From Torpedo marmorata (Eukaryota): a stretch of DNA of 64,000 nucleotides. A model generated the notes under the pieces. It had not been told where the DNA came from, did no database searches, and worked only from the letters and a program-made list of their open reading frames with translations. Of this stretch, positions 1 to 45,045 are shown piece after piece. Made by a program: the position numbers and the translations under genes. Location: positions 209,374,001-209,438,000 of the forward strand of contig OZ360222.1 of NCBI GenBank assembly GCA_977017645.1, given 5' to 3'. Numbering within the stretch: position 1 is the first letter of the stretch; each line of letters opens with the position of its first letter.

Positions 1-561
1 GCTCCCTTTGTGGCTTTCTCTACATCGGAGAGACCGGTCGTAGATTGGGAGATCGCTTTGCTGAGCACCTCCTCTCCGTCCGCAACAACAGCGACCTCCC
101 AGTAGCCAACCATTTCAATTCCGGGTCACACTCCCACACTCACATATCTGTCCATGGCCTTATGTACTATCCCACCCAGACTACCCGCAAATTGGAGGAA
201 CAACATCTCATTTTCCGTCTGGGCACTCTCCAGCCAGATGGCATTAACATTGACTTTTCTGCTTTCCACTAAACCTGCTTGTCTTTTCCTTCCCCTCCCC
301 CCTCACCTGTCCTTCCTGTTTTTTTCCACCCACCCAGCCATCCCTCCTCCCCCTCTTTGCTGCTGTCCCCTCCCTCCTTTCTCCACCTATCATCTCCTGA
401 CTTTGCCACCCCCCCTTCCCCCCCTCACTCTTTTGTTTGGACGTCTGCCGGCGTACTTTGATGAAGGGCTCAAGCCCGAAACGTCGGTTATGTATATCTA
501 CCTTTGCTACATAAAAGACACTGTTTGACCTGCTGAGTTTCTCCAGTATTTGTGTTTTTTA
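1..561 (+). mobile_element. Penelope-like retroelement (PLE), 3' fragment: GIY-YIG endonuclease C-terminus and 3' tail; runs off the window start
   Basis: Frame reads CGFLYIGETGRRLGDRFAEH...VANHFN...RKLEEQHLIFRLGTLQPDGIN, stop at 272. A pyrimidine-rich tail follows, near-identical to the copies at 1734-2349 and 7667-9089. Confidence 0.92.
452..492 (+). ncRNA. Minimal type I hammerhead ribozyme motif in PLE tail (copy 1)
   Basis: TTGATGA(458-464)-A-GGGC-TCAA-GCCC-GAAA-CGTC(485): CUGANGA-like box, stem II, GAAA box, palindromic ACGT stem III, GUC cleavage triplet. Confidence 0.75.
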
Positions 562-668
562 CAATACTCTAAATGTGGTCTCACCAGAAATTTGTGGAGT
601 TGCAACATGACCTCTCGACTCTTGAACTCAATCCCCCTATTAATGAAGTACAACATCCCATAGGCCTT
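562..668 (-). mobile_element. CR1 LINE ORF2 fragment, 3' part of the CR1 split by the L1 insertion
   Basis: Minus strand resembles the CR1 AYGMLYFINRGIEFKSREVMLQL...LVRPHLEYC region and is collinear with 9955-10604 across the TSD. Confidence 0.85.
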
Positions 669-1733
669 TTTTTTAATTTAAATTTTATTGAGTTCTTTAA
701 AAAAAAGTTTCTCCAAACCCTTGAGTCATTGTTAAAGTTATGTAAATCATAAGTTACAAAACATAAACTTATCCATAAAATATAAACAAACATGGCAGCA
801 AAAAATATCAATATAATAACCATATGTGTCTACTTAGACCTCTAATAACAGAAAAAAAATGCTGTTCATTAATATGCTTCACCACAACATCCACCACTAT
901 TCCCCCCCCCCACCTAGGAAACCTAGATATTTGCCCCATTTTTGTCCAATTTATCAAACTGTTTGTAAGACATGCATTCAAACGCTGCCACTTTGGCCAT
1001 TTCTGAGGCTCACTTCTGAAATGATGGTTCCCCCCAAATTCTTCCAACCTCTAAGTATAATTTGTCTTCCTACCATTATACTTGTCTGAATCCAATTTTG
1101 AGAGTATTTATCCCCAAATAACTCAAGTGTGTCTCCCAAGACAAAGAGTCTGGGGCAAAAAGGAATTTGAATGCCTGAAACTTCACCAATATTCTTATGT
1201 ATCATAATCCAAAATTCTTGAATTCTGGGACAAGACCAAAGCGCATGTACTAAGTCCCCTTTATCCACCTCACAGCGCCAGCATTCAGTGGTATTTTTCA
1301 ACCCTAATCTATATAACCTGGCTGGAGTCCAATAAAAACAGTGCATATTCTTAAACTGAATTAGGCGCACTCTCAGGTCTCTTGACATTATTTTGATATT
1401 TTTACAAATTTTGTCCCATTCTTCCATCTCAAAAACAACACTCAGGTCTATTTCCCATGCTCTTTTAAGACCCAACAGAAGTTTATCCCCTAAGATTCGT
1501 ATTAAGGCTGAATAATAAAATGAGGCTTTGTGACCTTTGCCATATGCAGCCAGTACAGTAGACAGTATCGTAGCAACTTGTGGGGGTTGCTGTGTAGAAC
1601 CAAAAGTTGTGTGTAGCATATGACACAGTTGAAGATATCTCCAAAATTGAGACCTAAAGATATCATACTGTTGGATTAGTTGATTAAAAGATTTTAAACT
1701 GCCACCATTATAAAGGTCTCCTAATTTAATTAT

Positions 1734-2349
1734 GAAAATCTGTAGACAAAGGGAGCATCCGGTGCTCCCTTTGTGGCGTTCTCTACATCGGAGAGACTGG
1801 TCGCAGATTTGGAGATTGCTTCGCCGAGCACCTCGTCTTCGTCCGCAACCACAGCGACCTCCCAGTAGCCAAACATTTCAATTCTGGGTCACACTCCCAC
1901 ACTCACATGTCTGTCCATGGCCTTTTGTACTATCCTACCCTGACCACCCGCAGATTGAAGGAACAACACCTTATCTTCTGTCTGGGCACTCTCCAGCCAA
2001 ATGGCATTAACATTGATTTCTCTGCCTTCTACTAAACTTGCTTGCCATTTCTTTCCCCTCCCCTTTTCCTGTCTTTCCAGGTTTCCCCTCCCTTCTCCCT
2101 TACCCACCCAGCTATCCCTCCTCCCCCTCATTACTGCTGTCCCCTCCCTCCCCTCATCCACCTATCATCTCCTGCCTTTGCCAACCACCCCCCTCACCCC
2201 TCCCCTTTTGTTCGGATGCCTGCCGGCATTCTCTCATACCTTGATGAAGGGCTCAGGCCTGAAACGTTGGTTATGTATTTCTACCTTTGCAACATAAAGG
2301 ACACTGTTTGACCTGCTGATCTTCTCCAGCATTTTGTGTTTTTTACTTA
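1734..2349 (+). mobile_element. 5'-truncated PLE inserted in L1 ORF2
   Basis: Degenerate GIY-YIG C-terminus plus the same tail as copy 1. Flanked by TCCTAATTTAATTAT (1719-1733) and TCCCAATTTAATTAT (2350-2364). Removing it restores the L1 frame GIIKLG-DLYNGG. Confidence 0.9.
2235..2275 (+). ncRNA. Minimal hammerhead ribozyme motif in PLE tail (copy 2, GUU at cleavage site)
   Basis: CATACC-TTGATGA-A-GGGC-TCAG-GCCT-GAAA-CGTT-GGTTATG; stem I CATACC/GGT(T)ATG. Confidence 0.65.
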
Positions 2350-4459
2350 TCCCAATTTAATTATACCTTTCCCTTGCCATTCCCTCCAGAAAAAAGGAGA
2401 CTTATCAATACACAACTTTGGATTCATCCAAATACTCGAGGCTTCATTCAAATATGAATTAAATTTAAATAATCTGGCTAATTTATTCCAGAACAAATGC
2501 ATATGCGATGTAATTGGGTGAGATCTTGCCTCAGGAGGTAACTTGATAGACAAACATTGTAATAGAGGGATAGGAGGAAGAGCAGAACACTCAATATGAT
2601 ACCAAGGAGGAGTTCTCTCCGGAGGGAGAGACCAATGTGCTAAATGCTTAAGAGTAAAAGCATAATAATAGTACATTAACTTTGGCAAACTTACCCCCCT
2701 CCCCTTTCAACTGGCAATTGTAATTTATCAAGTTTCAAGCATGAGCATTTACCATTCCAAATAAAAGCCTTAATTATTTTATCAAATTGCTTAAAATATG
2801 TTAATGGGATTTGCACTGGTAACAATTGAAACAGGTAATTAACCTTTGGAATACTATTCATCTTCAAGGCATTTACTTTTCCCGACATTGACAAATACAA
2901 TGATGACCATCTATCTACATCACATGAAATTTTCTGCAATAATGGATCAAAATTTACCTTTACTAAATCCTCCAGTTGGGGGGGAAAAATTTATACCTAA
3001 ATATCGTATTGGAATTAGGGAAATTGGTCTATAATTCTTACATTCACACGGGTCTTTACCCTCTTTCAGAATCAATGTAATTAGCGCTTGTGATAAAGTA
3101 GGGGGTAAATTACCCTGCTCTTCAGACTCATTATACATATTCAACAGTAGTGGGGCTAGCTCCTCCGCATAGCATTTAAAAAATTCTGCAGTAAATCCAT
3201 CTGGACCAGGAGCTTTCCCAGTAGGTAACATCTTAATCACTGATATAATTTCTTCCAATGTTATAGCGGAATCAAGGTATTGTTGTTCTTTCGTCAATTT
3301 AGGTAACCCTAATGGCCTCAGTAAACTATCAATTTCATCCTCACTAGAGTTGGAGGTAGACGTATGTAGGTCCTTATAAAACTCTTGAAATGCATCATTA
3401 ATATCTTTAGGTGTCGTCAAAATATCACCAGTTGCTGATCTAATAACTGGGATGATACGCATTGATTCTCTCTTTTTTATACACCTTGCCAGAAGCTTGC
3501 CAGCTTTCTCCCCCGATTCAAATTGCCTTTGTCTTGCCCTAAAAAGCCAAAATTCTACTTTCTGGGATAATATTAGATTGTATTGATATTTCAGCCATGT
3601 TAATTCTCTCAAGTCTTTGGATAACATCTGCTGCTTCAATTTTGTCTCACTCTCTTAGATTTTATTTTCTAAATTTGTAATTTTCTGATTATTCTGTTTT
3701 TGTTATATAAGAAGTATGTTGAATAGTATATCCCCTCAGAACTGCCTTCAGGGCTTCCCAATTAATCCCTGCCGAAGAGGCCGTAGGTGTATTTAACTCT
3801 AAATACTCCTTGATTTGTTGTCTCATAGCTTGCCTAAATATTGAATCTTGTAACAAGGATGAATTAAATCTCCATCTATGTGACTGCATTCTCTTATATA
3901 CTGAGGTATTGTCTCTCGACAAACCCAAACATGATCTGATATTATAATATTACCAATTGCACATTGAAACACCGACTGTAAGTGACTTAGATATAAGAAA
4001 TAAATCAATCCTTGCATATGTTTTATGAACTGCAGAAAGAAAAGTGTAATCCCTCCCACTGGGATTCATAAGGCTCCAAACATCTACAAGCCCGAGGGCC
4101 TTACACATTTTTTGTACCATCACAGTGGGCTTTGAGGTTCTAGATAATATTTTACTACGGTCAATGATTGGATCCATTACCAAATTAAAATCTCCCCCAA
4201 GTATGATGTCATAAGCTCCAATAGAGTGTAGTTTTCTTTCAAGATCCACAAAAAGCCTGCATCTTCTATATTAGGTGCATATATGTTTGCTAAAATAATA
4301 TGTTGCTTCTGTATTTCTGCCAAAATAATAAGAATTCTCCCTGCTTCATCTTTGATTTGTTTCTCACATCTAAACTGCAGCTGTCTATTGATAAATGTTA
4401 TAACACCCCTGCTCTTAGTTGACCCTGCACTGTAAAAAAAACATGATCTGTAAAACCAC

Positions 4460-5524
4460 TGTTACGTACCAGACAGCAGCAATAGAAATTAGCCCAGGCA
4501 GTGTTATATTTAAAATAATATTTTTAATTATTAATTAACAATGATATAACACCTTAACTAATTTATCTAAACTTATCTAAACTTATCCCCCAACTATGCT
4601 TGTGTGTGTGGAATACCCCAAGCCACTACAGCTCAAGGCACAATTCTCGAAAGGCAGTTCAAAGTTCAGTCTCAGAAAATCCCAATGCTGACACGCAGGT
4701 TTTAAATCGATGCGACACGTAGGCTTTAGATGGATGCGACAGAAGTTCACGAAGTAGGTGAGAGAGAGACCGGGGTGACAGAGTGTTTATAAACTCACAA
4801 AATCCTTGTTGAGGTGCTTCCAGACCAATGTCTTTTTCAGACAAGTGGCAACCAAAACTCCCCTCTTCCTTGGCGTAGGGGACACGAAGCGAGTGATCTT
4901 CACAAAGCTTCCAGAAATCCTTTCCGTGGGTCAGCCGTTCCAAGTGACACTCACAATGGTCACAATCAAAACGCAGTATTTCTCTGCTTCCAGAACCCTT
5001 TTCCGTGGGTCAGCCGATCAAAGTGACCTTCACTTTTTGGTCACAGAGTGGTATTCTCATTCCCCTCTAACATGGAGAAATCTGACACTGTCTATCACCA
5101 CGCGAGGCCACATTCAGCACAGTATCCCTTCAAAGGATGCTTCTCCAAGTGCTGTCTCCCTAAAATGGCCACTACTCATTCCCGTATAACATGGGGAAAT
5201 CAGACAGATTGTCTATAACCACACACGAGGTCACTTCAGTACTATATTACTTCCAAGAGCTCTGCTCCACAGCACTGCCTCCTCAAAATGGCCCCTGAGC
5301 AAACTGTGTACTCAGTCTTGAATCTGTTGGTCACATGGTCTCTGCACCTGGGTTTTACAGGGCCCCTTCTTCTCCAGGTGTATCCAATTTAGGAACACGC
5401 TGTCCTCGGCCTGCTGTCAGTTCACAGTCACTCTCCAGAGCCTGCAGGGTTTTGTTAAATGTGTTCTCTTAAAGTGACAGACACACACAAATGAAAATGA
5501 ACTGAAAAATGGGAGCACGTAATA
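4460..5524 (-). repeat. 3' LTR (~1065 bp) of a Gypsy element
   Basis: Ends TGTTACGT...ACGTAATA (imperfect terminal inverted repeat). Polypurine tract GGTGGGAGG on the minus strand at 5525-5533. Confidence 0.8.
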
Positions 5525-7660
5525 CCTCCCACCAACAAAGAAAATTTTGAGCTCTAAGAGCAAAGTTTTAACTGAAACCTACAATGTTTGAAATAATACA
5601 TTCACTATTTACATGACATAATACAGACAAATCTAACATTTTTCAGTAATGCTGCGAACTTAACATCTTGAAAGGCAATCAGCAAAAATTTTACAGAACT
5701 TTCTGTAATACCCAACCATTCCCAAAAACTTCCTAATAGCTTTCTTACCTGTGGGTATAGGAAACTCAGAAATCGTCTGAACTTTCGCCTGAACAGGCGC
5801 CAACTTGCCCTGACCAACAACATAACCATGATAAGTCACAGTAGCATGGCCAAATTCACTTTTAGCTAAATTGACAGTAAGGTTTGCTTTTGAAAGTTTG
5901 TCAAACAATTTCTCTAACTCAGAGATATGTGCTTCCCATGTGTCATTTCCTATAACCAAATCATCAATATAAGCATCCGTATGCTCTAAACCTTGAGTTA
6001 TAGAATTAATCATTCTTTGGAATGTCCCTGGAGCATTCTTCATTCCAAATGGCAAAACATTATTTTCATATAAACCTGACGAGGTCACAAACGCAGAAAT
6101 TTCCCTACCTCTCTTTCTGTTTAGGGAACACACCAATAACCTTTCAATAAGTCCATCTTTGTAAGAATCTTAGCCTTTCCAACCTTGTCCACACAATCAT
6201 CCACCCTAGGGAGAGGATAAGCACCTGTCTTTGTTTCATCAATGACTGGCTTGGCAGTCAACTGCACCGCAGGGACAACTTTACCCTCTGCAAGGTCATT
6301 TTCTAATAGCAATGAGACCCCCTCTACTGGTAAACCTGATCGGATCCCTATCGCAACAGGTCCATTAACTAATTCTGATTCCAATATTATACTGTGCAGA
6401 GGTATCGACTCTGGGTCACCCCCCAAACCTCGAACCAAATTTAGGTCACCCGTGGCAGTCTCATCGCCAAACTCCAAAACACTGTCCAACATGAGTGATG
6501 GGGCAGCCCCAGTATCTCGAAGGATTTCCACTGTCACTTGTGGTGACCCATCCTCCAATGAAACCAAACCCTCGGACACAAAATTTTTGAACTATTAATA
6601 TTACCAGCAGGTCTGGAACTCTCTTGGTTTCCATGTTTTCCAACTTTTTGAATACAGGCAACTGGCGCTGCCTCCCTTTCTCTCTTTTTCCTCAACACGG
6701 GACAATATGCTATCACATGACTAGGTTTCTTACAATAGTAGCAAAGGGGACCCGAAGGCTTTTCCTTTACTTGCTTTACTTCATCTTTACCCCGAGCACT
6801 ACTTCCCGATTTGTTTTCTAACATGTGGATATTCCACATAAACACTCTGGAGGTTTTACTTGGCACAAATTCAACCCTTTGGAAGGCTCCACTTGGCACC
6901 AACTCAACCCTGTGGGTTAAAGCACACTCATCTGCTATCTTAGCAGATTCCTGCCAAGTTTCCATTTCTCTTTCAAACTGTCTTTGCCTCTCAGCTTTCT
7001 CCCTTCTAAGTTTTCCTTATTCTAGCTGCCTTTGTCTCTTGGCTTCCTCCCATTGCTTTTGGGCTTCCTCCCTCCGCTTCTGGGCTTCCTCAGCCTCAAA
7101 TCTCCTTTGCTTCTCTTCAAACCTAAGTTTTTCTCGCTCAAACTCCAATCAAAGTTTTGCTAATTCAATTTGTTCCCCTTGTGACTGCTGCTCACGGGAT
7201 TCACTCTGGAGAAATTGTTTTACCTTCTCCTCTCCAAACTTCCCTACTGATTCCTCTGCTGATAAATGTGTTTCCTGTAGAAATACCACATCCCATTTTT
7301 GTCTCTTAAGCTTATTCATTACTTTTCTCTTTTTTATAGGATTCCCTTAGTCCGTTAACATTCCATGTGGTGAAACATATTTTGTCTAAATTAAGAGAAG
7401 TCATAATTAAGACAAACAAACAAATACATCACAATATTTTGACACTGACTCATCAATCCCCATTTAAATGGAAAAGTAACAAAATGGCACATAAATCTCT
7501 CCCGCACACCACAGTGGCCACAAAACACGGCCAAACGATCCTTCCACAAAGGATTATGGTCCATGAACACCCCGACCAGTTAACTGCACAGAAACGATGC
7601 CGGTGCAATTTTAGAGTCAACATAGCACACTTAACAGCATGTCAGCCCTAGTGAGGATAA
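4460..7660 (-). mobile_element. Gypsy/Ty3 LTR retrotransposon, internally deleted, 5' LTR missing
   Basis: Gag coiled coil and CCHC knuckle CYYCKKPSHVIAYC; protease LRDTGA; RT motifs YPLPRVDD, DLLKGYW, LPFGMKNAP, YIDD, FLGMVGYYRKF. No integrase before the PPT. Confidence 0.9.
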
Positions 7661-7737
7661 GGTAGTAGTAAAAAACACAAATGCTGGAGAAACTCAGCAG
7701 GTCAAACAGTGTCTTTTATGTAGCAAAGGTAGAAATA

Positions 7738-7778
7738 CATAACCGACGTTTCGGGCTTGAGCCCTTCATCAAAGTATG
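7738..7778 (-). ncRNA. Minimal hammerhead ribozyme motif in PLE tail (copy 3)
   Basis: Minus strand: CATACT-TTGATGA-A-GGGC-TCAA-GCCC-GAAA-CGTC-GGTTATG. Confidence 0.75.
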
Positions 7779-7964
7779 AGAAAATGCCGGCAGGCGTCCA
7801 AACAAAAGAGTGAGGTGGGAAGGGGGGGTGGCAAAGGCAGGAGATGATAGGTGGAGAAAGGAGGGAAGGGACAGCAGCAAAGAGGGGGAGGAGGGATGGC
7901 TGGGTGGGTGGGAAAAAACAGGAAGGACAGGTGAGGGGGAAGGGGAAGGAAACGACAAGCAGGT

Positions 7965-9086
7965 TTAGTGGAAAGCAGAAAAGTCAATGTTAATGCCATC
8001 TGGCTGGAGAATGCCGAGACGGAAAATGAGATGTTGTTCCTCCAATTTGCGGATAGTCTGGGTGGGATAGTACATAAGGCCATGGACAGACATGTGAGTG
8101 TGGAAGTGTGACCCGGAATTGAAATGGTTGGCTAGTGGGAGGTCGCTGTTGTTGCAGGCGGAGAGGAGGTGTTCAGTAAAGCGATCTCCCAATCTACGAC
8201 AGGTCTCTCCAATGTAGAGAAAGCAACAGAGGGAGCACCGGATGCAGTAAGTAAGTTCTCTGGATGTACAAGTGAAGTGTAGTTTCACTTGGATGTCCTG
8301 TTTGGGGCCCTGGACCGTGGTGAGGGGGGAGGTGTGGGCGCAGGTGTTGCACCTCCTGCGGGCACAGGGGAAGGTGCCGGGGGTGCGATGGGTGGGGAGG
8401 GATGAGTGCACAAATGAATCGCGGAGGGAGCTGTCCCTACAGAAGGCCGAGAGGGGAGGAGAAGGAAAACTGTGTCTGGTGGTGGGATCCTGTAGTAAGT
8501 GCCGGAAATTCCGGCGGATAATGTGTTGGATGCGGAGGCTGGTGGGGTGGTAGGTGAGGATGAGGGGGATTTTTTGTTTGTTGTGTCTGGGGGCAGAGGG
8601 GGCCAGGGCAGATGAGCGGAAAATGGAGGAGATGCGGGTGAGGGCTGAGTTGATGGTGGTGGAGGGGAAGCCACGTTTGTGGAAAAAGGCAGACATTTCA
8701 GAAGATCTGGACTGGAAGACCTCATCTTGGGAACAGATGCGGCGGAGACGGAGAAATTGAGAGAAGGGGATGGAATCCTTGCAGGGGACAGGGTGTGAGG
8801 AAGTGTAGTCCAGATAGTTGTGGGAGTTGGAGGGTTTGCAGTAAATGTCGGTGGAAAGCTTGTCTCCTGAGATGGAGACCGAGAGATCCAGGAAGGGGAG
8901 AGTGTTATCGGAGATGGACCAGGTTAGTTTGAGATCGTGGTGGAAGTTGGATGCGAAGTGGATGAAGTTGACAAGCTCATCGCGTGTGCATGAGGCAGCC
9001 CCGATGTAGTCATCGATATAACGGAGGAAGAGATGAGGGGTCTTGCCTGTGTAGGCTTGCAGCATGGATTGCTCCACAAAGCCCAC
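7965..9086 (-). CDS. Partial PLE polyprotein (RT plus GIY-YIG endonuclease), 373 codons open
   Basis: FLRYIDD, LPFLDL, SQFLRLRRICS, PLILTYHP, C..RRCNTC, TYCIRC..C.FLYIGET. 5'-truncated, so unlikely to be a functional gene. Confidence 0.8.
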   Translation of the reverse strand: MGFVEQSMLQAYTGKTPHLFLRYIDDYIGAASCTRDELVNFIHFASNFHHDLKLTWSISDNTLPFLDLSVSISGDKLSTDIYCKPSNSHNYLDYTSSHPVPCKDSIPFSQFLRLRRICSQDEVFQSRSSEMSAFFHKRGFPSTTINSALTRISSIFRSSALAPSAPRHNKQKIPLILTYHPTSLRIQHIIRRNFRHLLQDPTTRHSFPSPPLSAFCRDSSLRDSFVHSSLPTHRTPGTFPCARRRCNTCAHTSPLTTVQGPKQDIQVKLHFTCTSRELTYCIRCSLCCFLYIGETCRRLGDRFTEHLLSACNNSDLPLANHFNSGSHFHTHMSVHGLMYYPTQTIRKLEEQHLIFRLGILQPDGINIDFSAFH

Positions 9087-9139
9087 AATCAGGTAGCCTG
9101 GACCCCGGCCGCCGTCTCACCGGAGCTCCCAACGCGACG

Positions 9140-9954: not shown

Positions 9955-10604
9955 TCCCATAGGCCTTCTTAACTATCCTATCAACCTGTGCACCGATCTT
10001 TAGGGATGTATGGATTTGAACCCCAAGGTCCCTCTGTTCATCCACACTCTTAAGTTACCGACCATTAACCCTGTACTCAGCCTTCTGGTTTGTCCTTCCA
10101 AAATGCATCACCTCACACTTATCCGGATTGAACTCCATCTGCCACTTTTCCGCCCAACTCTGCATCCTGTCTATATCCTTTTGTAACCTACGACAAACTT
10201 CAGCTCCATCCACAACTCCTCCAACCTTCGTATCATCCGCAAACTTACTGACCCATTCTTCCACCTCTTCATCCAGGTCATTTATAAAAATCACAAAGAG
10301 CAGTGGTCCCAGAACAGATCGCTGCAGAACTCCACTAGTCACTAACCTCTAGGCAGAATACTTTCCTTCCACCACTACTCTCTGTTTTCTACACGCAAGC
10401 CAATTTTTTATCCACACAGCCAAGGTTCCGTGGATCCCATGCCTCATGACTTTCTGGATGAGTCTCTCATGGGGGACCTTGTCAAATGCCTTACTAAAAT
10501 CTATATAGACCACATCTACCACCCTATCCTCACCAATTTCTTTTGTTACCTCCTCAAAAAACTCAATTAGGCTCATGAGGTACGACCTTCCCTTCACAAA
10601 GCCA
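9955..10604 (-). mobile_element. CR1 LINE RT fragment (host of the L1 insertion)
   Basis: GFVKGRS, YIDFSKAFDKVPH, SVLGPLLFVIFINDL, KFADDTK, WQMEFNPDKCEVMHFG. Confidence 0.92.
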
Positions 10605-11215: not shown

Positions 11216-11450
11216 TTTTTTAGAGATAGAGCATGGTAACAGGCTCATGTTACACCCATGTGACCAATTAATCTACCAACCCCGTACGTCTTTGGAACTT
11301 GGGAGGAAACCAGAGCACCGGGAGAAAACCGAAGCACCCGGAGGAAACTCACTCAGACACGGGGAGAACTCCTTGCTGACTGCAGTGGATTCGAACCCAG
11401 GTCACTGGTGCTGTAATAGTGTTGCACTAGCTGTTACGCTAACCGTGCTG
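11216..11450 (-). mobile_element. tRNA-derived V-type SINE with a short internal duplication
   Basis: B-box-like GGTTCGAATCC and V-domain-like GTTCTCCCCGTGTCTG...TTTCCTCCGGGTGC on the minus strand; GGAAACCAGAGCACC unit duplicated. Confidence 0.85.
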
Positions 11451-12659
11451 GCCAAAGTATTTTTTAAGCAAGTATTTATTGACATCTCAGCATCAGCCAA
11501 TGTAATCAATCTGGCTGGGTATGGATGTGCAGCTATTTTATGTATTATAGTTAGAACACCGAGAGATGGATTCAGGGTAAGGGAAATGAATGGATGTGTA
11601 GGAATGCAGGGAAGATGCACAGTCTGATCCTTTCCATGTTAATCAGCAGTTAAAGAAAATGTTTTTTTCTTCAGATGTTCAAATTCTTCATTGGAAACCA
11701 AGCGTAATCTATTAATGTGTTGAATCACACAGACACTGTGGGGTTCTATTTTTTTCCTCTCTGCCTGTTCAAAGTAAGAGAATGCAGAGCAATATGTAAA
11801 TGGTTCAGGGAAGGAAGCAGCAGAGAGACGGGGCTGCGGCATTTCGTATTCAGGTGCTGTTACCAGAAGCCAATTAATCAGCCTAGTGGCAGGAGCGATG
11901 CAGAGAGGATGAGTTCAGCCTTCACGTTGATGAGCCTGGTCCAGGGCAAGTGGTGCTGCACCTGAGCTCACGGTTAGAGATGCAGAATATGGGATCATGG
12001 GAATAGCTTCAATCCTTTGTCTTCTTATGGAGGATGTAAAATGTCAGGCGGCGAGGGCTGGGTGTGTAATATCTTCTTTAAACAATTCAAGCAGCGCGTT
12101 CCCTGCTTAACTCTTTCAAGCACACACACCGTGTAAGATTTCTAATTTCATTATTGAAGTCCATTTAAATACATGTTAAATTTGTACCATTTCTAAACAC
12201 TGGCATTCAAAAGACTGCAAATTGATATGGATTGTTTGAATGTTTAATGTTCATAACATCACTTGCTCTGGTATTTTAACAAAGGCAATTATTTTCAAAG
12301 GGTTAATGCATTTGTTAAAATACTGGGCAAATTAACTGAAAGCAAGCAGGTTATGATCTCTTAATGTATTTTCCAGACTTGTATCTTTAAACATATCCAG
12401 ACAGAATTCGAGATTTTCCCTCATCCCTACTTCTGCTAAAATTGCAAACACAATGTCCCACGAAAATCGTCCTCCTCTCTGAGGAAAGGTTGGGAACATG
12501 ATATTTTCCAAGTGAGGCAGTTTTCACTGAGAGAAAAAAATATACAGTAGTCAGCAGCAACAGAAAGGGTAAAAGCAGTTCTATCCTTCAGGTAGCAAGG
12601 CATGGACTACATTCAAGTAGGTGAGCAGGAATTCCTGCACCACAAAGGTAGCAAGCAAA

Positions 12660-20144: not shown

Positions 20145-20400
20145 GGCATGGTTAGCATAGCAGTTGGCGCAACACTGTTACAGCGCCAGCGACCGGGACT
20201 GGGGTTCGAATCCGGCAATGTCTTTAAGGAGTTTGTACATTCTCCCCGTGTCTGCGTGGGTTTTCCCCGGCGGCTCCGGTTTCCTCCCACCCTTTTAAAC
20301 GTACCGGGGATTATAGGTCAATTGGCTGTAATTGGGCGGCACAGGCTTGTGGGCCGAAAGGGCCTGTTATCATGCTGTATGTCTACATTTTAAATTTAAA
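20145..20400 (+). mobile_element. tRNA-derived V-type SINE (young copy)
   Basis: GGCATGGTTAGC..., GGTTCGAATCC, V domain, CR1-like tail GGGCCGAAAGGGCCTG, AT-rich end. Confidence 0.9.
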
Positions 20401-23400
20401 TTTTTTTAAATTTTAAACATTTAAAATTTAACCAGTGCATATAGTCAGATCCTATAGGTCTTAATTTGGGAGGCCACACTCTCTAATATTCCTTCCACCT
20501 CTTCTCAAAACCTGCTCTCCCTGCTTTTAAAGTTCTGAATGGCCAGTGAAACAGCCATGTGGCCCAGAATTCTATCTCAACCATGGCTGATTGCTATCCT
20601 CTGGACATCATCATAGCTGAGCCGAATCCTCTCCCTTTGAATGTCTACCTACTTTTCGGTTTTCCCCAGTGACCTTGGGCATGAACCTGAACCAATACTT
20701 TTTTGAACCAAAATATACTTCATTCACAATAAATTCTTCTACGTCCAGGTACCCTAAGGTCAATTGTAGGTTGTAAAATCAGTTGAGGTTGAGGATTGGA
20801 GCAAAGAGAACCCCCTTACACTATAAGAGATTAGGCTTCATGATTCTTGGGTGCGGTGCATTTATTTGGAGAAATATATGCAGCATTCGCTGCCAGTGAC
20901 CATTTGAATAGTTCAAAATTAATTCTTGGGATATAATATTAGTAAAGGAAAAATGAGTACAGAAAGTTTTGGTTATTTGTTGCTTCCTTCCAGAAGTGTT
21001 AACGTGAGCTGCATTCAAAGATAACTGCTAGACATAAAACATCACTAGGAACAGAATTCTGTGGAAATCAGATTAAAAGTATTAGCATTTGATTTCACAA
21101 AGGTGTCTTCTATTCGTCGTCAATTTCTTTCTTTTCATGGTTAGAAGACAGTTGGATCTGTAACCTATGGGATTATTCTAGGTGTTGCTTTAAATAAAGA
21201 TGTTCAGGATATATGCTGGTGTCCGCCATTTGAATTGTCTCTGAGAGCAGAGCTGGATAAAACTGATCTTCCACTGACGTCTTGTAAGCATTCTGTGAGC
21301 TGAAACTCTATATTCTGGCTGGAAATGAGTTTACCGGAGTCTGATTGGCTGTTGTCATGACTACTCTGCTCCAATACTGCCATTTGTCTGTTTTAAAGCT
21401 TGAGTACATTACATTGACTACATTTTTCATTTTACCACCCAGGACAAGGCTCCTGTTACTTCATTGTATAAGATTTAACAATCAGTTACATTCCTTGTCT
21501 GAGTATTATAGAGGTTTATCACAGGGGAGGGAAAGAGCAAACAGCTTAAAGGGGCACTGACTTCATTAAAATGGCAGTGGTTGGCAATCATTTATTATGA
21601 AGCTGTCAGACTTATTAATTGACAAATATTTGGGCTAAAACCTAATACTCCCAGGAGTAAACGGATTGTCAGTGTATTTGCACCAACATGTTAAGGAAAA
21701 GGCCATCCACTTACTGATACTGTGATTTTTATTTGGACTTTCAGGACGTCTATTCCTTCCTCTGCCACTCCTCATATAGAACTGGCAGCACAGGAAGAAG
21801 CCATTCAGCCCAACAGCATCATGCTGGTCTCCGTGGTCCACCTGAACCTGCTTCCAACCTCTTTCATCTCACCCTAAAGTAACTTCATATGTGGCACAGG
21901 GAATGAGAATGAATTTATTTATTTTTAAGCAGAGGGCAACAACATGGTTTGTAAACAAGCCCACGCTATTAGCCACTTCCCTCTTCAAAGGATAGCAATG
22001 TACATTGCCTGCCAGGAGGTGACGGTCAGGCTCAAGACTTGAGTTGCTCAGGGGAAACTCGCCAAGCTGGGGAACTCTGTCCCGTGGGTTCTCAACCTTG
22101 TGCATCTGAAGCCTCCCTTCCTCAGAAAGAGTGATGAACATGTAACCTTTTGTGAGAAAAGCCTCTCACTGTGAGCTGCCGGCTGATGGATTTGGCATTT
22201 GGTTGCCTGTAAGTGGCTTGAAAGACTGAAGGCCGTGTAATATTTTACACAATAGTGACTTTAACAGACACTGGAAAAGAATTAACAACATAGCAGTCTC
22301 TGGGAGATGTCACAGGTAGCTGGTAGCGCCAAAGACATATCGGCTGAGATGCTGGGAAGGACCGACAGGGTTGGTGATTGCAGATCCTTGATAATTGATG
22401 GGCGACTTCATGACTATTGCAAATGAATCCCCTGATAAACTTGCCTTGCTCACCTGAATCAGTGGAGTGAGAAGGGGCCAGAGGGTGGGGAGGGGAATGA
22501 AAAGTCTCAAAGTGTAATTAAAGTCACCTTCTCAGCAGCTGATGAGAGGACAAAAGACTAGCAATGCAACTTCAAATAAGCTCCAAGCTTTGCAGCAATG
22601 TTTCCACCTGAATGTCTGCATTATACTGGGTGAAATTAGCACCAGAGAGCAGGTTAGTTCAAGAGCATAATATAGGGAGCTGATCCAAATAATAATATAA
22701 TAGATGAATAGATAAGGCTTATGTCAGGCATCACTGCAGCCTATGATGGCTTAGTCGTTCTCCTCCTTCTGAAGTTAATGCGATAAGTATGTGAACGGCT
22801 CCGTGCCTAGTTCATGATCTGCGTCCTCATCCACTGCTACAACTCTATGATCATTCCTGTTTGAGGTCCTCAGCAGCTGCTCCACATTCATGCCTGGTAG
22901 CTGAACTACCCACAATGAGGGCTAGATAGTCCCATTCACACATAGGACAACTTAGGCTCTTTGTCACATCCTTCAATGCCATAGACTTCTGTGGCATTCC
23001 TCAACGCTGAGACATCCGCCCACCTGAGCTGTTACCTTCAGGCAAAAATATAAATGTTAATAAGAAATAATTTGCACTTCCTTTGCTTCAGGAGGGCCCA
23101 TGGTGTTTTACCACAAAGGAAGAACTTTTGTAGCTGAGTCATGGTTGTGAGAAGTATGCTGATGCCCCGTTTATGATTTATCACCAGCTTAATGGTCCAA
23201 CATGTCCATGTCATTACAATGAAGTAGATGTGAGAAATAACTGGTGTGTGTTGGACCTATCACAAAGCAGTGTAGTGTGACCTCCAACTGAACACCTGGG
23301 CAAAGATGAGAGAAGGTTACTGTGATCCCACTGGATATTTACAACAGGCCTGTACTGTAGCTGTCCACAATCGCACCATTATAGAAAACGTGTTAGAACA

Positions 23401-24350: not shown

Positions 24351-26244
24351 GCACCCATTATCATCTCCTCCTCATCATATCCTCCCTTCCCTTTTACCTC
24401 AAACTTGCACTCCCTGGAGATGTATAGACCTGGCATGGGGCCAAAGAAGGCTACCTGATTCTGCTTCCTGTGAAGTACCTAGGGCTGCACATTATAAATT
24501 TGGCGCAACAATTTCGGAGAGAAAAATAAATTGGGCTTTCTGGCCCTTGGCCAAACTTCAAAGTGAAATATCACCAAGTCCTTCCCACTCACTCTTGCCT
24601 CCCCCTCACCCCACCATTCATATCAATTGATGTGGAGAACGGTCACTCTGGCAGAGATATACCAACAGGACAGTGAATCATTCAGTATTTTCAGGAGAGT
24701 CAAAAGAGTGGTAGGAGGAAAACAATGGTGGGGGGGGGGGTGGGGGTTATTTCTCCATGATGATCAAAGCGAAAATTTAAGGAAGGAGGTGAGGAGATCT
24801 GTAAGGCAGAACTGGGGACCATAATTCTCATCTTGGGGGAGGGGGAGTTGGTACCTCGTCTGATGTTGTTGCTGCTCTTTGCTGGGTCCCTGTTGGAATG
24901 AAGCTCAGTAACAGCCTGTCAGTGTGAGGAAGCCTGGAGTGTGAGGATGAAAGTCCCTCATTAACGATAACTGTGCTCAGTTCCCCAGGGATCCCTGGTA
25001 TTTGGTGGGAATGTCTGCGTTAAACATTGTTTTCACAGAAAGCATAATGCAAGGGGAATTCTGGGTACAGCCAAGCAATAAAATGAAACAAAATCTAAAT
25101 AAACAGCTTCTGATATTTGTCAGGTTTTTATTTTACACAGTGAAGCCACCCTAGCTCATCCAGCACCAGAATCCCAGTGGAAATATCATGTGTCCTACAG
25201 GATCCCAGAGGATAAAGCCTGTGGGAGACAAGATATCTTGCGGGGTGATTGATGAAACGTCTACTGCTCCTGAAGATACTGAACATCCCTGTGATTTGGT
25301 GTCTCCCCTTCTCCATGCCCTAACTCAAGTGACCTTTCCCCAAGTGTGGGTAAACTGCAGACGCCATCATAAGCCAACCGCACGGACGTACCTCCAGGAG
25401 TAGGAGTAGGAGCATCAACTGAATATGTTGCCCTGGATCTTCCTTCCTTTTCATTTTCCTCTGACCTCATTATGTCTTCCTTTCTCACCCAGTGTCAAGG
25501 TTGTCCCATCCCTTCTAACCTTCCCCTCTCTGCCCCCAATTCGGTCTCAACTGTGGTACTTCCTGCTATCTTGAGAATTCTCAACCCTTTCGTTTTGCAC
25601 TGCCATTTCTTTTCCCATTTAATTTCATGCCTTTTATTCTTTCAGACATTTTCCTAATTTTTTTCTTTCCTTTCCTCTCTCCTCTCTCCTAACTTGTTCC
25701 ATTGCCAGCATTTTGATCATCTCAAAATATTAACTCTGTTTCTCTCTCCATATATCTCTCTGCCCTGCTGAGGACTTCCAGCAATTCTCTGTTTTTAATC
25801 CAGCAGGATAACTTGTTGGCTTCAGAGGTTTTGTAGTAGAAAAGGGAAAGTAATTCAGTTTTCTTGATCTCAACCTCCTTCTCTTGCAAAATTCTCAGAT
25901 ATGAAGGTTTGTTTGGGGAAAGGACTGTATCCGACAGTGATTTGTGCCATGGAACCGTTAGTCAGGACACAGTCACTCTTCCATCTCCCCTTACTCTGTT
26001 ATGACAGATCACTCTGAAATCTTCACAGAAAAGTAGCATTGGAAAGTCTGTCTGGAATTTCACCTGAGTATCCTTATTCATTCATGCTCGAGTTTACTCA
26101 ATATACTTTTAATATTATATGCCTGCAGCCCCTGTTAGGTTCAGTGAAAGGATTCACTAACAACTGCCTTTGCAGACAAGAGCAACTTGGATAGCATGAT
26201 TTTGTTAACATGAATGAGACCTAGGGAATTTAATATTTTTTTAA

Positions 26245-26491
26245 ATTTTTAATTTAGACATACAACATGGTAACAGGCCCTTCCAGCCCATGAGCTTGTG
26301 CTGCCCAAATACCCCTATTAACCTATAATCCCCCTATGTTTTGAAAGGTGGGAAGAAACCAGAGCACCCGGAGGAAACCCACGTAGACACGGCGAGAATG
26401 TACGAACTCCTTACCGACAGTGCCGGATTCAAATCCAGGTCGCTGGCACTGCAATAGCATTGTGCTAACCACTTTGCTAACTGTGCTGCCC
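26245..26491 (-). mobile_element. tRNA-derived V-type SINE
   Basis: Reverse complement of the 20145 and 33779 family. Confidence 0.88.
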
Positions 26492-27134
26492 TAGTACATA
26501 CAGGAATGAATGATGGTTTCAACAAAAAAAAGGAGCCTATAAAGATAAATTATCTCCAAGCTACAGTTAGCCGGCTCAATGATAATTCCAGCAATAACCG
26601 AGGCTTCGGCCTGTCACTATGTCAAACTAAGGTGCAGGCAAACTAAAAAGTGATGACCTTTCTTCAGGAGCTTGATTTGTCAGCAGACGTCATGTCAGCA
26701 CTGACACAGGTTTGCACATCAACCGGGAGACACACATGGGCCAGCTGTGTGTACTGTACATGAACTGAAACTTACATGAAATATGCCTATCAGCACCATG
26801 GCACAAGATTGAGTCAATGCCTTTAGCCATGTGCTCTCTGTCCAGGAGCTGACACTGAAGCACACACATATCAACATCATTCATGTACACAAATGAAAAT
26901 GAAAATAAAAATGGTTTCAATCTACCAGGCTGAAGTTCACTTTCACTTTTTCCCATTCTACCTGAACATATGTACGAGATGCCCTTGTGTCATGCAGTTC
27001 CAAATGTGGGTAAACTGTGCAAATGCATTTGCACTGGTCTACAGGATCCGTGGCTGAGAAAAACACTCTCCATGCATTATCAGAGAGAATATCCCAGAGG
27101 TGTATCATTATATGAAGAATCACAAAAGGAGGCT

Positions 27135-27430: not shown

Positions 27431-27924
27431 TGCAGTGGTGCTGTGCTGTCTATTAAGTTACAGTTCCTGTTTGTTGTTGTTGAGTTGCATGGTTCACCTG
27501 CCTCAAAGTTTATCTGTATGTCTAATGGCCCATTATTTGTACATCTGTCTGCCATGTGGAAATTGAGTTGCTGCTAACTTGGTATCGCAAAAGGTAAGGC
27601 CTTTCCTTTAGTTCCAGTGCATGATGTCTATTGGTAAATCCACAGGCTAGGTCAGATCAGGTTGTATCAGGAGAAAGAGACTGCAAGGAAGGAGGAGGAA
27701 CATGAACTGGAAATGGAGTCAGGGCATGGAGCAATTGTCAAAGGGTGGTGGGTTGGGAGCCAGTTGCTGCCAGAAGCAGGTGGATCATTGAGCTGGAGGG
27801 GGGGGGGAGGGGGGTGGCGGGGGTGGTCATGTTGGGAAATTAGTAACAGGGCAGTGAACAATGGATGTGGGAATCGGTGCCATCTGTGTGAGGGGTTAGA
27901 CGTCCTGAAAGGAATCTGGTGAAT

Positions 27925-28640
27925 GCCTTCTTGATAGCTTGCTGCACCTGCAAACCAACCTTTTGCGATTCATGCACAAGCACTCCCAAGTCCTTCTGCA
28001 CGTCAGCATGCTGCAATCACATGCCATTTAAATATATATTCTGATCTTCCATTTTACCTTCCAAAGTGGATAACCTCACATTTGCCAACATTGTACTCGA
28101 TCTGCCAGACCTTTGCCCACTCACTTAACCTATCTATATCTCTGTGCAGACTCTCTGTATCCTCTGCACAATTTAGTGTCATCAGCAAACTTAGATACAA
28201 CATACCCTGTCCCCTCTTCCAGATCGTTTATGTATTTCGTGAACAGTTGCAGACCCAGCACCTACCCCTGCGGCACCCCGCTCACCACCGATTGCCAACC
28301 AAAAAAACTCCCCTGTATCCCAACTCTCTGCTTTCTATTAGTTAACCACTCCTCTATCCACGCTAATACATCACCCCCAACATTATTCATACTTTTCTTC
28401 TGTATAAGTCTTTTATGCAGCACCTTATTGAATGCCTTCTGGAAATCCAGGTTAACAATGTCCACCTGCTCCCCTCTATCTACTACGTTCATTATATCCT
28501 CAAAGAATTCCAGTAAATTTTTCAAACAGGACCTGCCTTGAAATCCATGCTGCCTCTGCCTGATGGATCCATTTCATTCTAGATGCATCGCTAATTTTTC
28601 TTTAATGATAGCTTGAAGCATTTTTCCAACTACAGACATA
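27925..28640 (-). mobile_element. CR1 LINE RT fragment
   Basis: NLLEFFED...LDFQKAFNKVLH...SGVPQG. Confidence 0.88.
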
Positions 28641-28990: not shown

Positions 28991-29210
28991 GCAGCATGGT
29001 TAGCATAGCAGTTAGCACAACACAGTTGCAGCGCCAGCGACCGGGACTGGGGTTTGAATCCTGCGCTGTCTGTAAAGAGTTTGTACGTTCTCCCCATGTC
29101 TCCCACCATTCAAAATGTACCAGGAATGTAAGTCAATTGGGTGTAATTGGGTGGCACGGGCTTGTGGGCCGAAAGGGCCAGTTACCGTGCTGAATGTCTA
29201 AATTAAAAAA
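28991..29210 (+). mobile_element. tRNA-derived V-type SINE with part of the V domain deleted
   Basis: Same head and tail as the 20145 copy. Confidence 0.85.
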
Positions 29211-31039
29211 GAAAAAATAGCAAGCACGTTTCAGTCCATGATCTTCATAACTGAAAAAATGCAGCTTGGCCTGAGCAACTATGATGGAAGATTTTCCTAA
29301 ATTTGCCTTGAGTGACCTTAGAATAGCAGAAGTGAAGAGACATGCAGGAACCCCCGTGACCAGACAGATCCATACCAAAATCTGTCACACCGCATATCAG
29401 TGTTATCAGCCAGTGGGGGAGGATGAGGAGGGGACCGATTGGTCTCTTGTACTCTGAGCACCTCCACAACCTACAGCTCCTGAAGGAGCCAGATTCCTGG
29501 GTCACAGAAAAATATCATACAGAGATTTAAAAAAACAACAGATTAAAGTGACGAGAAAGAACCACAGAAGCTTTGAAAAAAGCAAATGATATTTTAAAAA
29601 TTGTAATTGGGTACACGATACAGCTCCTTGCCAGAGTAATGAGACATCACAGTAACAGTAGGATTTAATGATGATTCCTTACAGGTTCTATCAGACTGCT
29701 CTACTGTTCTAATTAAATACACTAATGACTCAGAAAGGAACAAACAGCCTCCAATTCAAAGATATGCGTGATTTTTCTGTATTTTTTCAGAAGGAAGAAA
29801 TTTTTGGGCCATAGAATTTTCACATGGTTTTGCTTTGATCAGTTGCCTTGGTCTCATTTATGCTTTTCCTTCTCTCTCACACAGCTCGCTGGGACATTTT
29901 AAGGGAAGTGAAGACATCTTTGGGGCTTTTAAGCTCCACGGTGCAATTTGTCAACGACAAGTTGTTTTACAAAGGGGTGAAGAAGATGGACGGGCTGAGT
30001 GGTGATTCCTTATTACTTCAGATTAAGGACTCCCCTCTGGCCGATAATGAGCTGTGATTTACTGTGTTCTCACACTGGATTGAGTTCTGAAAAGCTAACT
30101 GCTTCCAGAGTGACTCTTGTCAAGGCAACTGTCAGATGCAGCTGTATGCTTTCAGCAGGAAAACATCTTCAGATCCCGATTCTTATGGGCGGATCACTAT
30201 TCACAAGACAATCACTGTGATTGCCCTTGATGATGCATCCTGAGATCCCTCTGGGTTCAGAATTGACATGTGGAATTGTAATAAACTTTAAAACTTGGAC
30301 TTGTTGTGATGCGATTATTTAACCCCCTCTAGTGGTTGGATGATGAAATGAAAACAAAATGGCTTCGCAGCGATAAAGCACGTGGTGAGCTCTTCAGGAG
30401 TGGAAGTGTTTACTCACACTGAACGGAGCTGTTATAATAATTGATGACAGAAAAAGAAAGGAGGTCCAGCTAATTTCGCTGGGGTAACAGCTGGATTTTG
30501 CAGAGACAGTTTTTATGCGTGTAGCTCAAGTCAAGGAGACCATAACTGGTACTTTGGATTCGTTCAGCAGTTTAATTGAAATATGTGTAAAGGAGGGAAC
30601 AATTTTTTATGCTGCAAATTAGATTGCAAAGGGAAGAAGACCATTCTTCCTCACATTGTAGATGCTAATTGACAAACACTGAATGGTTCTCTCCAAAGAG
30701 GTGTACACTGAAGAATCAGTTAAATTATTTGAACAGCGAAAATGTCCACTACCAGTCCTGGGTTGCAATGGCATAGTTTAACATCCAGAGTCAGCATCCA
30801 TTCCCACTCTCAGAATTCGATGCAACCAATCCATACATCTGTAGACATTGAACAGAAAGGGGAATCAAAGGAACTTGATAATGGCATTGAAGTATCAATG
30901 ATGTATGAGCAACAACATTGGCTAGATAGTACAGTGAAACTCATGGACTCATTTCCCTTTCTTCAAACCTGCAGTCAATGTACTAAGGATGTATGAAGTT
31001 AGAGTGATAATCAATGAAAGTGAAGCAAAGTTACTTTGT

Positions 31040-32905: not shown

Positions 32906-33125
32906 AGACCCAGAGACCCAGGTTTAATCCTGACCTGGGCAGCTGTGTGGAGCTTTCTGTGGCTGCATAGGTTTCCTTTGGGTGCTCGGGTTTCCTCCCA
33001 TAACCCAAAGATATGTGGGTTGATAGGCTAATTAGCCAGTCAAAATGCCTCTAGCATGTAAGTGCATGATAGAATTTGGGGGGATGAGAATGTATGAGGA
33101 ATAAAAAAAAAACAGGATTATTGTG
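32905..33125 (+). mobile_element. Older V-type SINE
   Basis: AGAGACCCAGGTTTAATCCTGACC...GGTTTCCTTTGGGTGCTCGGGTTTCCTCCCA. Confidence 0.7.
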
Positions 33126-33370: not shown

Positions 33371-33778
33371 TTAGTGTAAAAAGTGCATGCTTTCCCCAGG
33401 CTAAATGCGTGTATGTATTATAATATGTTTACCTGTGCACTCCTCTGTGAAATGTAATGCAGCGTGGAACATCACATTATTATTCTCTCTATCCACTTGC
33501 TTTTGCACTGGAGTTTGTTTACTTTCATTTTCAAAACATTAGAAATGGTTTCTCTGTTTCTGGCATTTGTCCAACTAAATCAGCTTCCTTCATCATAGTT
33601 TTGCTAAAGGTCCTTGTCTACTTACTGTGGAAAGGAGTTGAATTTAGTAACGTGATTATTGGAAGTCCATTCTGGAATCCCATTTAAAACAAGGTAACTA
33701 TAAAAAGAATTGGGTGGCAGGGATTGAGATAAATGATCAACTCGTGCCTGTTTGTTAACACATGGTGAAGCTAAAGCA

Positions 33779-34037
33779 GGGCGGCATGGTTAGCGTGACG
33801 GTTAGCGCAATGCTGTTACAGCGCCAGCAACCCAGGTTCGAATCCAGCACTGTCTGTAAGGAGTTTGTATGTTCTCCCCTTGTCTGCGTGGGTTTCCTCC
33901 GGGTGCTCCGGTTTCCTCCCACCCTTCAAAACGTACCGGGGGTGTAGGTTAATTGGGTGCAATTTGGTGGCACGGGCTAATGGGGCGAAAGGCCCTGTTA
34001 CCGTGCTGTACGTCTAAACTAAAATTTAAAAATTAAA
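33779..34037 (+). mobile_element. tRNA-derived V-type SINE (young copy)
   Basis: A/B-box head, complete V domain, CR1-like tail. Confidence 0.9.
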
Positions 34038-44789: not shown

Positions 44790-45045
44790 TGTGGAGTTGG
44801 CCCATTCATCCTGTGATAGTATGGGTTTCCTCCAGGTGCTCTGATTTCTTCACACATTCCCAAAGACTTGTGAGTGAGTAGCTTAGTTGGCCACTGTTCA
44901 TTGCGCCAGTGTAGGCGGTGATGGAATCTGGAGGGAGGTGATGAGACAGTGGGGAAACAGGTCACTGGGAAAATTGGTCAGGTATTGGGATGGCTTCATG
45001 AGCTGAATGTAGACTTGATGGGCCCAACAACCCCCTTTTATATTG
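44790..45045 (+). mobile_element. Older V-type SINE
   Basis: GGGTTTCCTCCAGGTGCTCTGATTTCTTCACACATTCCCAAAGAC. Confidence 0.65.

What the first reader, a model, noticed from the sequence alone, without database searches (positions are those of the whole stretch)
452..492. Minimal hammerhead ribozyme with a U3 variant core in all three Penelope tails
Seen: the same motif YTTGATGA-A-GGGC-TCAR-GCCY-GAAA-CGTY-GGTTATG occurs at 458-485 (+), 2241-2268 (+) and 7745-7772 (-). Stem II pairing is kept in all copies (G-U in copy 2). Established: PLE pseudo-LTRs carry minimal type I hammerheads whose palindromic stem III (ACGT) favours dimeric cleavage. Unusual: all copies read UUGAUGA rather than CUGAUGA and have an extra A before stem II, so the variant is a family trait rather than decay. 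Inference: a lineage-specific variant ribozyme that processes PLE RNA.
Basis: partly seen in the sequence, partly recalled or inferred. Interest (0 to 1): 0.7.

Follow-up and report, generated by a model that had tools for sequence, protein, structure and literature searches.

The report
Wobble-core hammerhead in active Penelope family
The three motifs are tail ends of a very abundant, recently active Penelope-type jumping gene whose small hammerhead RNA motif carries an inherited U in place of a normally fixed C; the variant has a published precedent, it likely cuts only weakly or with help, and inserted copies show no excess of breaks at the predicted cut site.

Summary
The motif is real at all three places (3 hits, 0.01 expected). 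It lies in the pseudo-LTR of a Neptune-like Penelope element, 193 nt after the ORF stop and 152 nt before the next ATG in tandems. U3 is inherited: 465 of 69,910 otherwise identical copies have C3. The youngest subfamily has an intact 1,158-aa ORF and also carries U3. Neither oddity is new: the extra A is a published trait of these ribozymes, and a U3·G8 core is listed for Saccoglossus (Cervera and De la Peña 2014, Fig. S3). Constraint shows at position 7 (four states between fixed core letters) and in two compensated stem I pairs, not in stem II. Inserted copies do not pile up at the cut site (1 of 75 at risk, 0.9 expected), so templates were uncut or resealed. Side result: tandem copies share private variants, and short HHR-containing units repeat with exact, locus-unique junctions, which suggests rolling or jumping reverse transcription. 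Best reading: a slow, dimer- or protein-dependent ribozyme; cleavage is untested. This scan noted the same U3 variant before, in this genome and in another.

The parts
1..562 (+). Copy 1: 3' end of a 5'-truncated Neptune-like PLE (end of GIY-YIG domain, 3' UTR, HHR, ends at +76 from the cut site). It starts about 580 nt before the window, behind a short inverted piece.
   Evidence: 91.6% to the young unit; L396
452..492 (+). HHR copy 1: stem I 5' strand 452-457, core U3-A9 458-464, extra A 465, stem II 466-469/474-477, GAAA 478-481, CGU 482-484, C17 485, stem I 3' strand 486-492
1755..2347 (+). Copy 2: older 5'-truncated PLE end (83.9% to the young unit), ends at +77
2235..2275 (+). HHR copy 2: U3 at 2241, stem I closed by C-G, G10.1·U11.1, U17 at 2268
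7665..9096 (-). Copy 3: 5'-truncated PLE with a 383-aa open frame (RT end, CX4CXXC linker, GIY-YIG; 7965-9116), ends at +79
7738..7778 (-). HHR copy 3: U3 at 7772, C17 at 7745; the commonest form in the genome
9097..9329 (+). Inverted PLE pieces at the 5' end of copy 3 (typical head-to-head inversion)
   Evidence: (I7, I11)

Best explanation
This is a minimal type I hammerhead motif in the pseudo-LTR of a Neptune-like Penelope retrotransposon, with an inherited U3·G8 wobble core, that likely works as a slow ribozyme needing a second copy and probably the element's protein, so that most RNAs are likely reverse-transcribed before or without being cut. Shown: the anatomy, the position in the element, inheritance of U3 in successive subfamilies including the youngest, free change at position 7, compensated changes in stem I, and no excess of insertion ends at the cut site. 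Inferred: two motifs pair through ACGU to build stem III; U3·G8 keeps the tertiary 3-8 contact in a weaker form; U3 was likely tolerated because it also weakens a competing helix between the core and the cut-site strand once position 1.2 became G. The three window copies are single, truncated and likely inert.
For: Fixation: 465 of 69,910 exact copies have C3; U3 patterns gave 83,256 and 20,353 matches, a looser C3 pattern 7,765 with 968 in its control. All 10 long loci fetched have a 1,159-1,161-codon open frame and U3; the L121 tandem copies are 99.9% identical. Constraint: in groups defined by letters outside the core, position 7 is A, C, G or U and position 3 is C or U, while U4 G5 A6 G8 A9, the extra A, G12 A13 A14 A15.1 and U16.1 keep one majority letter. 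Stem I pair 2.2-1.2 runs U-A, U·G, C-G and pair 2.1-1.1 runs C-G, U·G, U-A (2 pairs with two-sided change in 18 hand-picked rows). Competing helix: in 15 of 15 rows with G1.2, U3 gives a lower predicted cost of freeing the core than C3; in 3 of 3 rows with A1.2 it does not. Uncut templates: 3' ends lie at +65 to +89 (48 of 106) or +110 to +129 (49 of 106), beyond an intact HHR; 5' ends show no excess at the cut. Literature: metazoan min-HHRs cleave poorly and only as dimers; the Anolis PLE HHR needs protein and is not needed for insertion in vitro.
Against: No cleavage data exist for this RNA. In one mutational scan of a hammerhead, single mutants of the CUGA turn region had low activity (the C3U value itself was not seen). 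The youngest subfamily adds G10.1·U11.1 to U3·G8. Stem II and its loop are nearly invariant in sequence, so they give no two-sided covariation. The G1.1-to-A change is a CpG-type transition and may be chance. For pairs with two-sided change, 51 of 500 shuffles reached the observed value. The C3 groups also show no clear cut-site excess (2 of 13 loci at +1), so the junction test does not separate weak from normal activity. U3 does not map to one clade on a short-alignment tree (13 changes against 24 shuffled).
Confidence: 0.5

Rival explanations
1. The motif no longer cuts. It is kept as a structure or sequence signal (protein binding, reverse-transcription start, promoter) or is slowly decaying, and the family spreads without cleavage.
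For: U3·G8 plus G10.1·U11.1 in the subfamily that is spreading now. No excess of ends at the cut site, and 0 of 81 core-selected copies end at C17. HHR mutants do not affect insertion in vitro. Naiad PLEs reach high copy numbers without canonical HHRs. The monomer's best fold pairs the core with the cut-site strand.
Against: The one position the hammerhead core leaves free (7) is the one that changed most, position 3 only takes letters that pair with G8, and stem I changes keep pairing. A signal unrelated to catalysis would not be expected to follow this pattern.
Confidence: 0.25
2. The ribozyme cuts tandem transcripts at two successive motifs, the 3,849-nt unit is ligated into a circle, and the reverse transcriptase rolls around it. 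The cut leaves no mark because it is resealed.
For: Tandems have a seamless 3,849-bp period. In 25 adjacent pairs (33.7 kb of overlap), 15 locus-private variants are shared by both copies, 8 of them where the upstream copy is partial, one at -45. 62 of 92 independent anchors run more than 45 nt past the cut site. L174 holds 11 copies of a 363-bp unit within one target-site duplication. The model was proposed in 2014, and circles are shown for animal retrozymes.
Against: Homologous strand transfer gives the same seamless tandems, and L257 shows a switch between subfamilies. The visible short-unit junctions join +121..+294 to about -23..-136, not the cut site, and the two junctions of L146 differ. 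Unequal crossing-over can explain the full-unit arrays L124 and L214.
Confidence: 0.2
3. The register is misread (C3 is kept and one or two extra U are inserted before U4), or U3 is copy-level decay.
For: Group B (C3) and group C (U3) differ by one U in several copies, so U3 may have arisen by insertion (rows). Insertions next to C3 are known in saltern hammerheads.
Against: Only the U3 register gives a continuous stem I next to the cut site, and slid registers pair about half of the cells. Decay is excluded by 0.67% C3 and by U3 in intact young copies.
Confidence: 0.05

Closest known systems
Minimal type I hammerheads (min-HHR) in pLTRs of metazoan PLEs (Cervera and De la Peña 2014, PMC4209133; parts 1-2 of 4 of the text and all 3 parts of the supplement PDF read)
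   Same: Type I layout, no stem III loop, palindromic 15.1-16.1, extra base between 9 and 10.1, short stem I, place in the pLTR. Fig. S3 lists Saccoglossus kowalevskii (1) with a U3 and G8 core and the extra A, and several motifs with G10.1·U11.1.
   Different: The published descriptor demands C3, so this family would be missed by it. The U3 variant discussed in the text is the compensated U3-A8 of Schistosoma. Here U3·G8 dominates about 100,000 copies and the active subfamily. No cartilaginous fish is in Table S1 or Fig. S3.
PAc Poseidon element of Anolis carolinensis (PMC11167929; search passages and part 2 of the main text read)
   Same: Two reverse-transcription start sites downstream of the HHR that define a tail; unprocessed RNA is the main template; no read ends at the cut site.
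   Different: PAc has C3-G8 and its ORF starts inside the HHR. Here the ATG is 152 nt after the cut site and the protein has a Neptune-type linker.
Neptune-clade Penelope-like elements (features as given in Craig et al. 2021, PMC8557442; search passages read)
   Same: Single ORF with RT and C-terminal GIY-YIG, CX2-5CXXC linker, partial tandems, inverted 5' copies, optional tail, HHR near the 3' end.
   Different: Longer ORF (1,158 aa) with a repetitive, proline-rich N-terminal part; no phylogenetic placement was made.
Animal non-LTR retrozymes (PMC7229834, search passages; bioRxiv 10.64898/2026.07.22.740005, parts 1 and 3 of 5 and passages)
   Same: L174 and the other short arrays are HHR-containing tandem units of 160-430 bp derived from a pLTR.
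   Different: Each junction seen here is unique to one locus, so these look like one-off products rather than spreading families. They carry the minimal U3 motif.

Membership tests
PLE min-HHR, literal 2014 descriptor | First core strand begins C-U-G-A-N-G-A | tested here: not met
   U at position 3 in all three copies; descriptor text
PLE min-HHR as listed in Fig. S3 (core variants included) | Positions 3 and 8 can pair (C-G, U-A or U·G) | tested here: met
   U·G in 12 and C-G in 6 of 18 rows; U·G precedent
PLE min-HHR as listed in Fig. S3 (core variants included) | U4 G5 A6 G8 A9, G12 A13 A14, A15.1-U16.1, H17 | tested here: met
PLE min-HHR as listed in Fig. S3 (core variants included) | Extra base between 9 and 10.1; stem II of 3-7 bp with G10.1-C11.1 | tested here: met
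   Extra A and 4-bp stem; G·U at 10.1-11.1 in copy 2 and in the youngest subfamily
PLE min-HHR as listed in Fig. S3 (core variants included) | Palindromic 15.1-16.1 stretch without a loop; stem I of at least 3 bp | tested here: met
   ACGU; stem I of 3 bp, a bulge and 3 bp
PLE min-HHR as listed in Fig. S3 (core variants included) | Located in the pLTR of a PLE | tested here: met
   Both flanks of intact ORFs in 7 of 10 long loci
Hammerhead ribozyme (functional) | Site-specific self-cleavage after N17 | not testable with these tools
   Only contig-type runs were listed; the genomic junction test was negative
Rfam hammerhead families | Score at the gathering threshold | tested here: not met
   No match
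Neptune-clade PLE | RT followed by a C-terminal GIY-YIG domain | tested here: met
   RVT_1 E 3.3e-6 and GIY-YIG E 5.6e-4, both just under Pfam's cut-offs; motifs
Neptune-clade PLE | CX2-5CXXC linker between RT and EN | tested here: met
   C-x4-C-x2-C; feature as stated
Neptune-clade PLE | Partial tandems, inverted 5' copies, optional tail | tested here: met
Neptune-clade PLE | Placement in the Neptune clade on an RT tree | not tested
   No reference PLE proteins were at hand
Non-LTR retrozyme (for L174) | Expressed as circular RNA and spread to several loci | tested here: inconclusive
   The junction occurs only in this one array; RNA could not be tested

The most novel reading that the evidence does not exclude
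The young family records rolling reverse transcription of circular RNA in a vertebrate Penelope element. The wobble-core hammerhead cuts and reseals unit-length circles, which gives seamless tandems with shared private variants, while short transcripts closed at other ends give one-off retrozyme-like arrays. U3 is a trade-off that frees the core from a misfold at the cost of the C3-G8 pair.
Probability: 0.2. Interest if true: 0.7.

Novelty: new member of a known kind. Interest (0 to 1): 0.36.

Why it matters
What hammerheads do for Penelope elements is open: processing, circle formation and mere hitch-hiking have all been proposed. This genome offers a natural series from C3 to U3 subfamilies, ending in an intact, very young element with two weakened pairs. 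One set of assays on these natural sequences would show whether a PLE needs its ribozyme to cut. Searches that demand C3 miss most of these motifs here (about 100,000 U3 matches against about 7,800 C3 matches). The variant itself is a small addition to what is in print.

Tried and rejected
Rfam scans found no hammerhead. Pfam found nothing on the truncated window frames of the PLE. The lead that full-length copies start at the cut site came from one locus (L125) and failed on a larger sample: that same locus was the only one; genome-wide counts were 663 for the 12-nt window over the cut and 634 for the next window, not normalised for anchor copy number; 3 of the 30 loci fetched had the junction at +1, and about 10 of the 100 listed by my eye count. 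The C3 control search was diluted by intact copies with a longer spacer (17 of 30 skipped) and is inconclusive. No copy ended at C17 (0 of 81). The dimer energies are unreliable because the stem I constraint did not hold; only its monomer values and one search are used. The tree (78 rows, 214 columns, includes rearranged copies) cannot show one origin of U3. No RNA holder was listed. Four papers that bear on U3·G8 activity or on PLE hammerhead variants were not held (Lünse et al., Przybilski and Hammann 2007, Nelson and Uhlenbeck 2008, Weinberg et al. 2015), so measured rates for U3·G8 and further precedents may exist there. Text searches for U3-type core strings and for shark hammerheads gave nothing relevant in the rows listed. 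The bioRxiv supplements were not seen.

Full report
Observation. The pattern found 3 matches against 0.01 expected. Each copy follows the end of a Penelope ORF: an 89-aa and a 99-aa GIY-YIG end for copies 1 and 2, and a 383-aa frame for copy 3. Against an intact unit, the copies are 91.6%, 83.9% and 93.9% identical and end at +76, +77 and +79, counting from the predicted cut. Each is 5'-truncated and has one motif. Rfam does not recognise them.

The element. A protein search of the genome scored 150 of 118,746 candidates; many had open frames of about 1,159 codons, some 3,849 bp apart. I fetched 10 such loci. All 10 have an open frame of 1,159-1,161 codons, and 7 have a motif on both sides. 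The protein has RT and GIY-YIG domains (both just under Pfam's cut-offs) and a C-x4-C-x2-C linker, which Craig et al. give as a Neptune feature (passages). The cut site lies 152 nt before the ATG. Of 106 copies, 48 end at +65 to +89 and 49 at +110 to +129; this matches the two start sites and tail described for the Anolis element. The host was not determined; that it resembles a cartilaginous fish is my impression from memory and from earlier scan notes.

U3 is inherited. The 25-letter motif occurs 69,910 times, and 465 of these have C before it. Two U3 patterns gave 83,256 and 20,353 matches; a looser C3 pattern gave 7,765, with 968 in its reversed control. All motifs flanking the 10 intact ORFs have U3. 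In contigs from four coded runs, no T-to-C change at position 3 was listed at 1%, while position 7 varied; this is biased to close relatives, and one run may be the source of this genome.

Constraint. To avoid selecting on the core, I sampled by the downstream tail (31,492 matches; about 90 of the first 100 fetched). Groups defined by letters outside the core were: A (C3 in 16 of 18, A7), B (C3 in 11 of 16, C7), C (two sets, U3 in 22 of 26 and 23 of 28, A7 or G7), D (U3 in 54 of 59, U7), and 21 unassigned or misaligned (168 copies, part of them chosen by core patterns, all within 5 mismatches of a core pattern). The youngest form E has U3, A7 and G10.1·U11.1. Other core letters keep one majority state. 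Stem I pair 2.2-1.2 goes from U-A through U·G to C-G, and pair 2.1-1.1 from C-G through U·G to U-A. On 18 rows that I picked by hand, 93% of cells pair, against about 52% when slid by one column; 2 of 3 stem I pairs and 0 of 4 stem II pairs show two-sided change, and 51 of 500 shuffles reach that pair count.

Why U3. The best monomer fold pairs core positions 3-8 with the cut-site strand. With the core forced free, the predicted cost is lower for U3 than for C3 in 15 of 15 rows with G at 1.2, and not lower in 3 of 3 rows with A at 1.2. U3 is found in groups with G1.2. This is a nearest-neighbour estimate made after the fact, so it is a hypothesis.

Does it cut in the animal? One full-length copy starts at the cut site (L125). 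I tested this on the first 100 of 366 near-full-length anchors. After dropping two overlapping loci and counting the repeated unit of one array once, 92 remained: 17 stop downstream, 1 (the same locus) within 3 nt of the cut against 0.87 expected, 12 inside the motif and 62 further upstream (upper 95% bound 6%). Genome-wide junction counts were 663 over the cut site and 634 in the next window (not normalised), and 3 of 30 fetched loci had the junction at +1. None of 81 copies ends at C17. The C3 control was inconclusive. Templates were therefore uncut or resealed. An earlier scan note reports cut-site breaks in a U3-A8 family of another genome; I could not check it, and it does not hold here.

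How tandems are made. In 25 adjacent tandem pairs from 30 loci (33.7 kb of overlap), 15 variants private to a locus are shared by both copies; 33 are in one copy only, leaving aside 67 from one chimeric segment in L257. Both copies were thus usually read from one source sequence. In 15 of 83 loci, short head-to-tail junctions join +121..+294 to about -23..-136. Five loci repeat one junction exactly, four of them on both inverted arms; L146 repeats it inexactly; no two loci share one. L174 has 11 copies of a 363-bp unit, ends at +77 and +114 and has a 14-bp target duplication; its junction is found nowhere else in the assembly. This fits rolling or repeated jumping on a short RNA, but these units are not closed at the cut site. 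Circles and strand transfer cannot be told apart with these data.

Comparison with what is known. Cervera and De la Peña (PMC4209133; parts 1-2 of 4 and the supplement PDF read) name the base between 9 and 10.1 as a conserved trait, report U3-A8 in Schistosoma, find low activity and only in multimers, and propose circles. Their Fig. S3 lists a Saccoglossus PLE motif with U3 and G8, and their descriptor requires C3. The Anolis HHR needs protein and is not required for insertion in vitro. A U3·G8 core with a nearby insertion is also cited for a halophile hammerhead (passage). I found no paper on this family in 8 searches, but four relevant papers were not held, and bioRxiv supplements were not seen. 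The 2026 preprint gives a mean of 363 bp for retrozymes of its one chondrichthyan, so arrays like L174 may already be tabulated.

Verdict. It has the anatomy and the constraint pattern of a minimal PLE hammerhead and is a new member of that kind, with a core variant that has a printed precedent but no test that I could find. Most likely it is a slow, conditional ribozyme (0.5); a dead or structural motif (0.25) and cut-and-reseal circles (0.2) remain open. Earlier notes of this scan already describe the U3 variant in this genome and another. Interest 0.36.

Noticed in passing
L174:1799-5707 (G000:C5, about 20.31 Mb): One insertion made of 11 copies of a 363-bp HHR-containing unit with an inversion, ends at both reverse-transcription start sites, a 14-bp target duplication and a junction unique in the assembly; retrozyme-like.
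   Followed up: yes
L139, L146, L152, L154, L155, L161, L169, L173, L182, L183, L194, L195, L206, L213: Short head-to-tail junctions whose ends cluster near -99..-136 or -23..-36 and near +255..+294 or +180. They may mark transcription starts and early stops; unexplained.
   Followed up: partly
L257 (element positions -1090 to -745): The upstream tandem copy switches to an older subfamily at a homologous position, a likely template switch between different RNAs.
   Followed up: partly
element positions -45 to -4: 5' breaks are about twice as dense inside the motif (12 events, 0.42% per nt) as downstream (0.19%); many are inversion or short-unit junctions, with a recurrent inversion near +7.
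   Followed up: partly
L121:4669-6651 and like frames in L122-L130: A second long overlapping open frame (486-660 codons) on the same strand in the 5' half of the young element; it may reflect the repetitive, proline-rich region.
   Followed up: no
window 978-1877, 2691-4461 (-): Broken LINE with endonuclease- and RT-like frames (L1/Tx1-like by recalled motifs); PLE copies 1 and 2 lie in or beside it.
   Followed up: no
window 5660-7016 (-): Broken LTR-retrotransposon-like frames (zinc knuckle, protease-like, RVT_1 E 6.8e-19).
   Followed up: no
window 58510-58628 (+): Diverged 5S rRNA-like match (52 bits), probably a pseudogene or SINE head.
   Followed up: no
window 9980-10580 (-), 27924-28541, 46183-49830 (+), 31593-32534 (-), 60965-61363 (-): CR1/L2-like LINE fragments (family names from recalled motifs); no host exon was recognised among frames of 125 aa or more.
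   Followed up: no
window 11289-11453, 20145-20404, 26238-26492, 28993-29219, 32950-33011, 33778-34035, 44793-44864, 53670-53800: A dispersed SINE-like repeat family on both strands (D4-D7, D9, D11).
   Followed up: no
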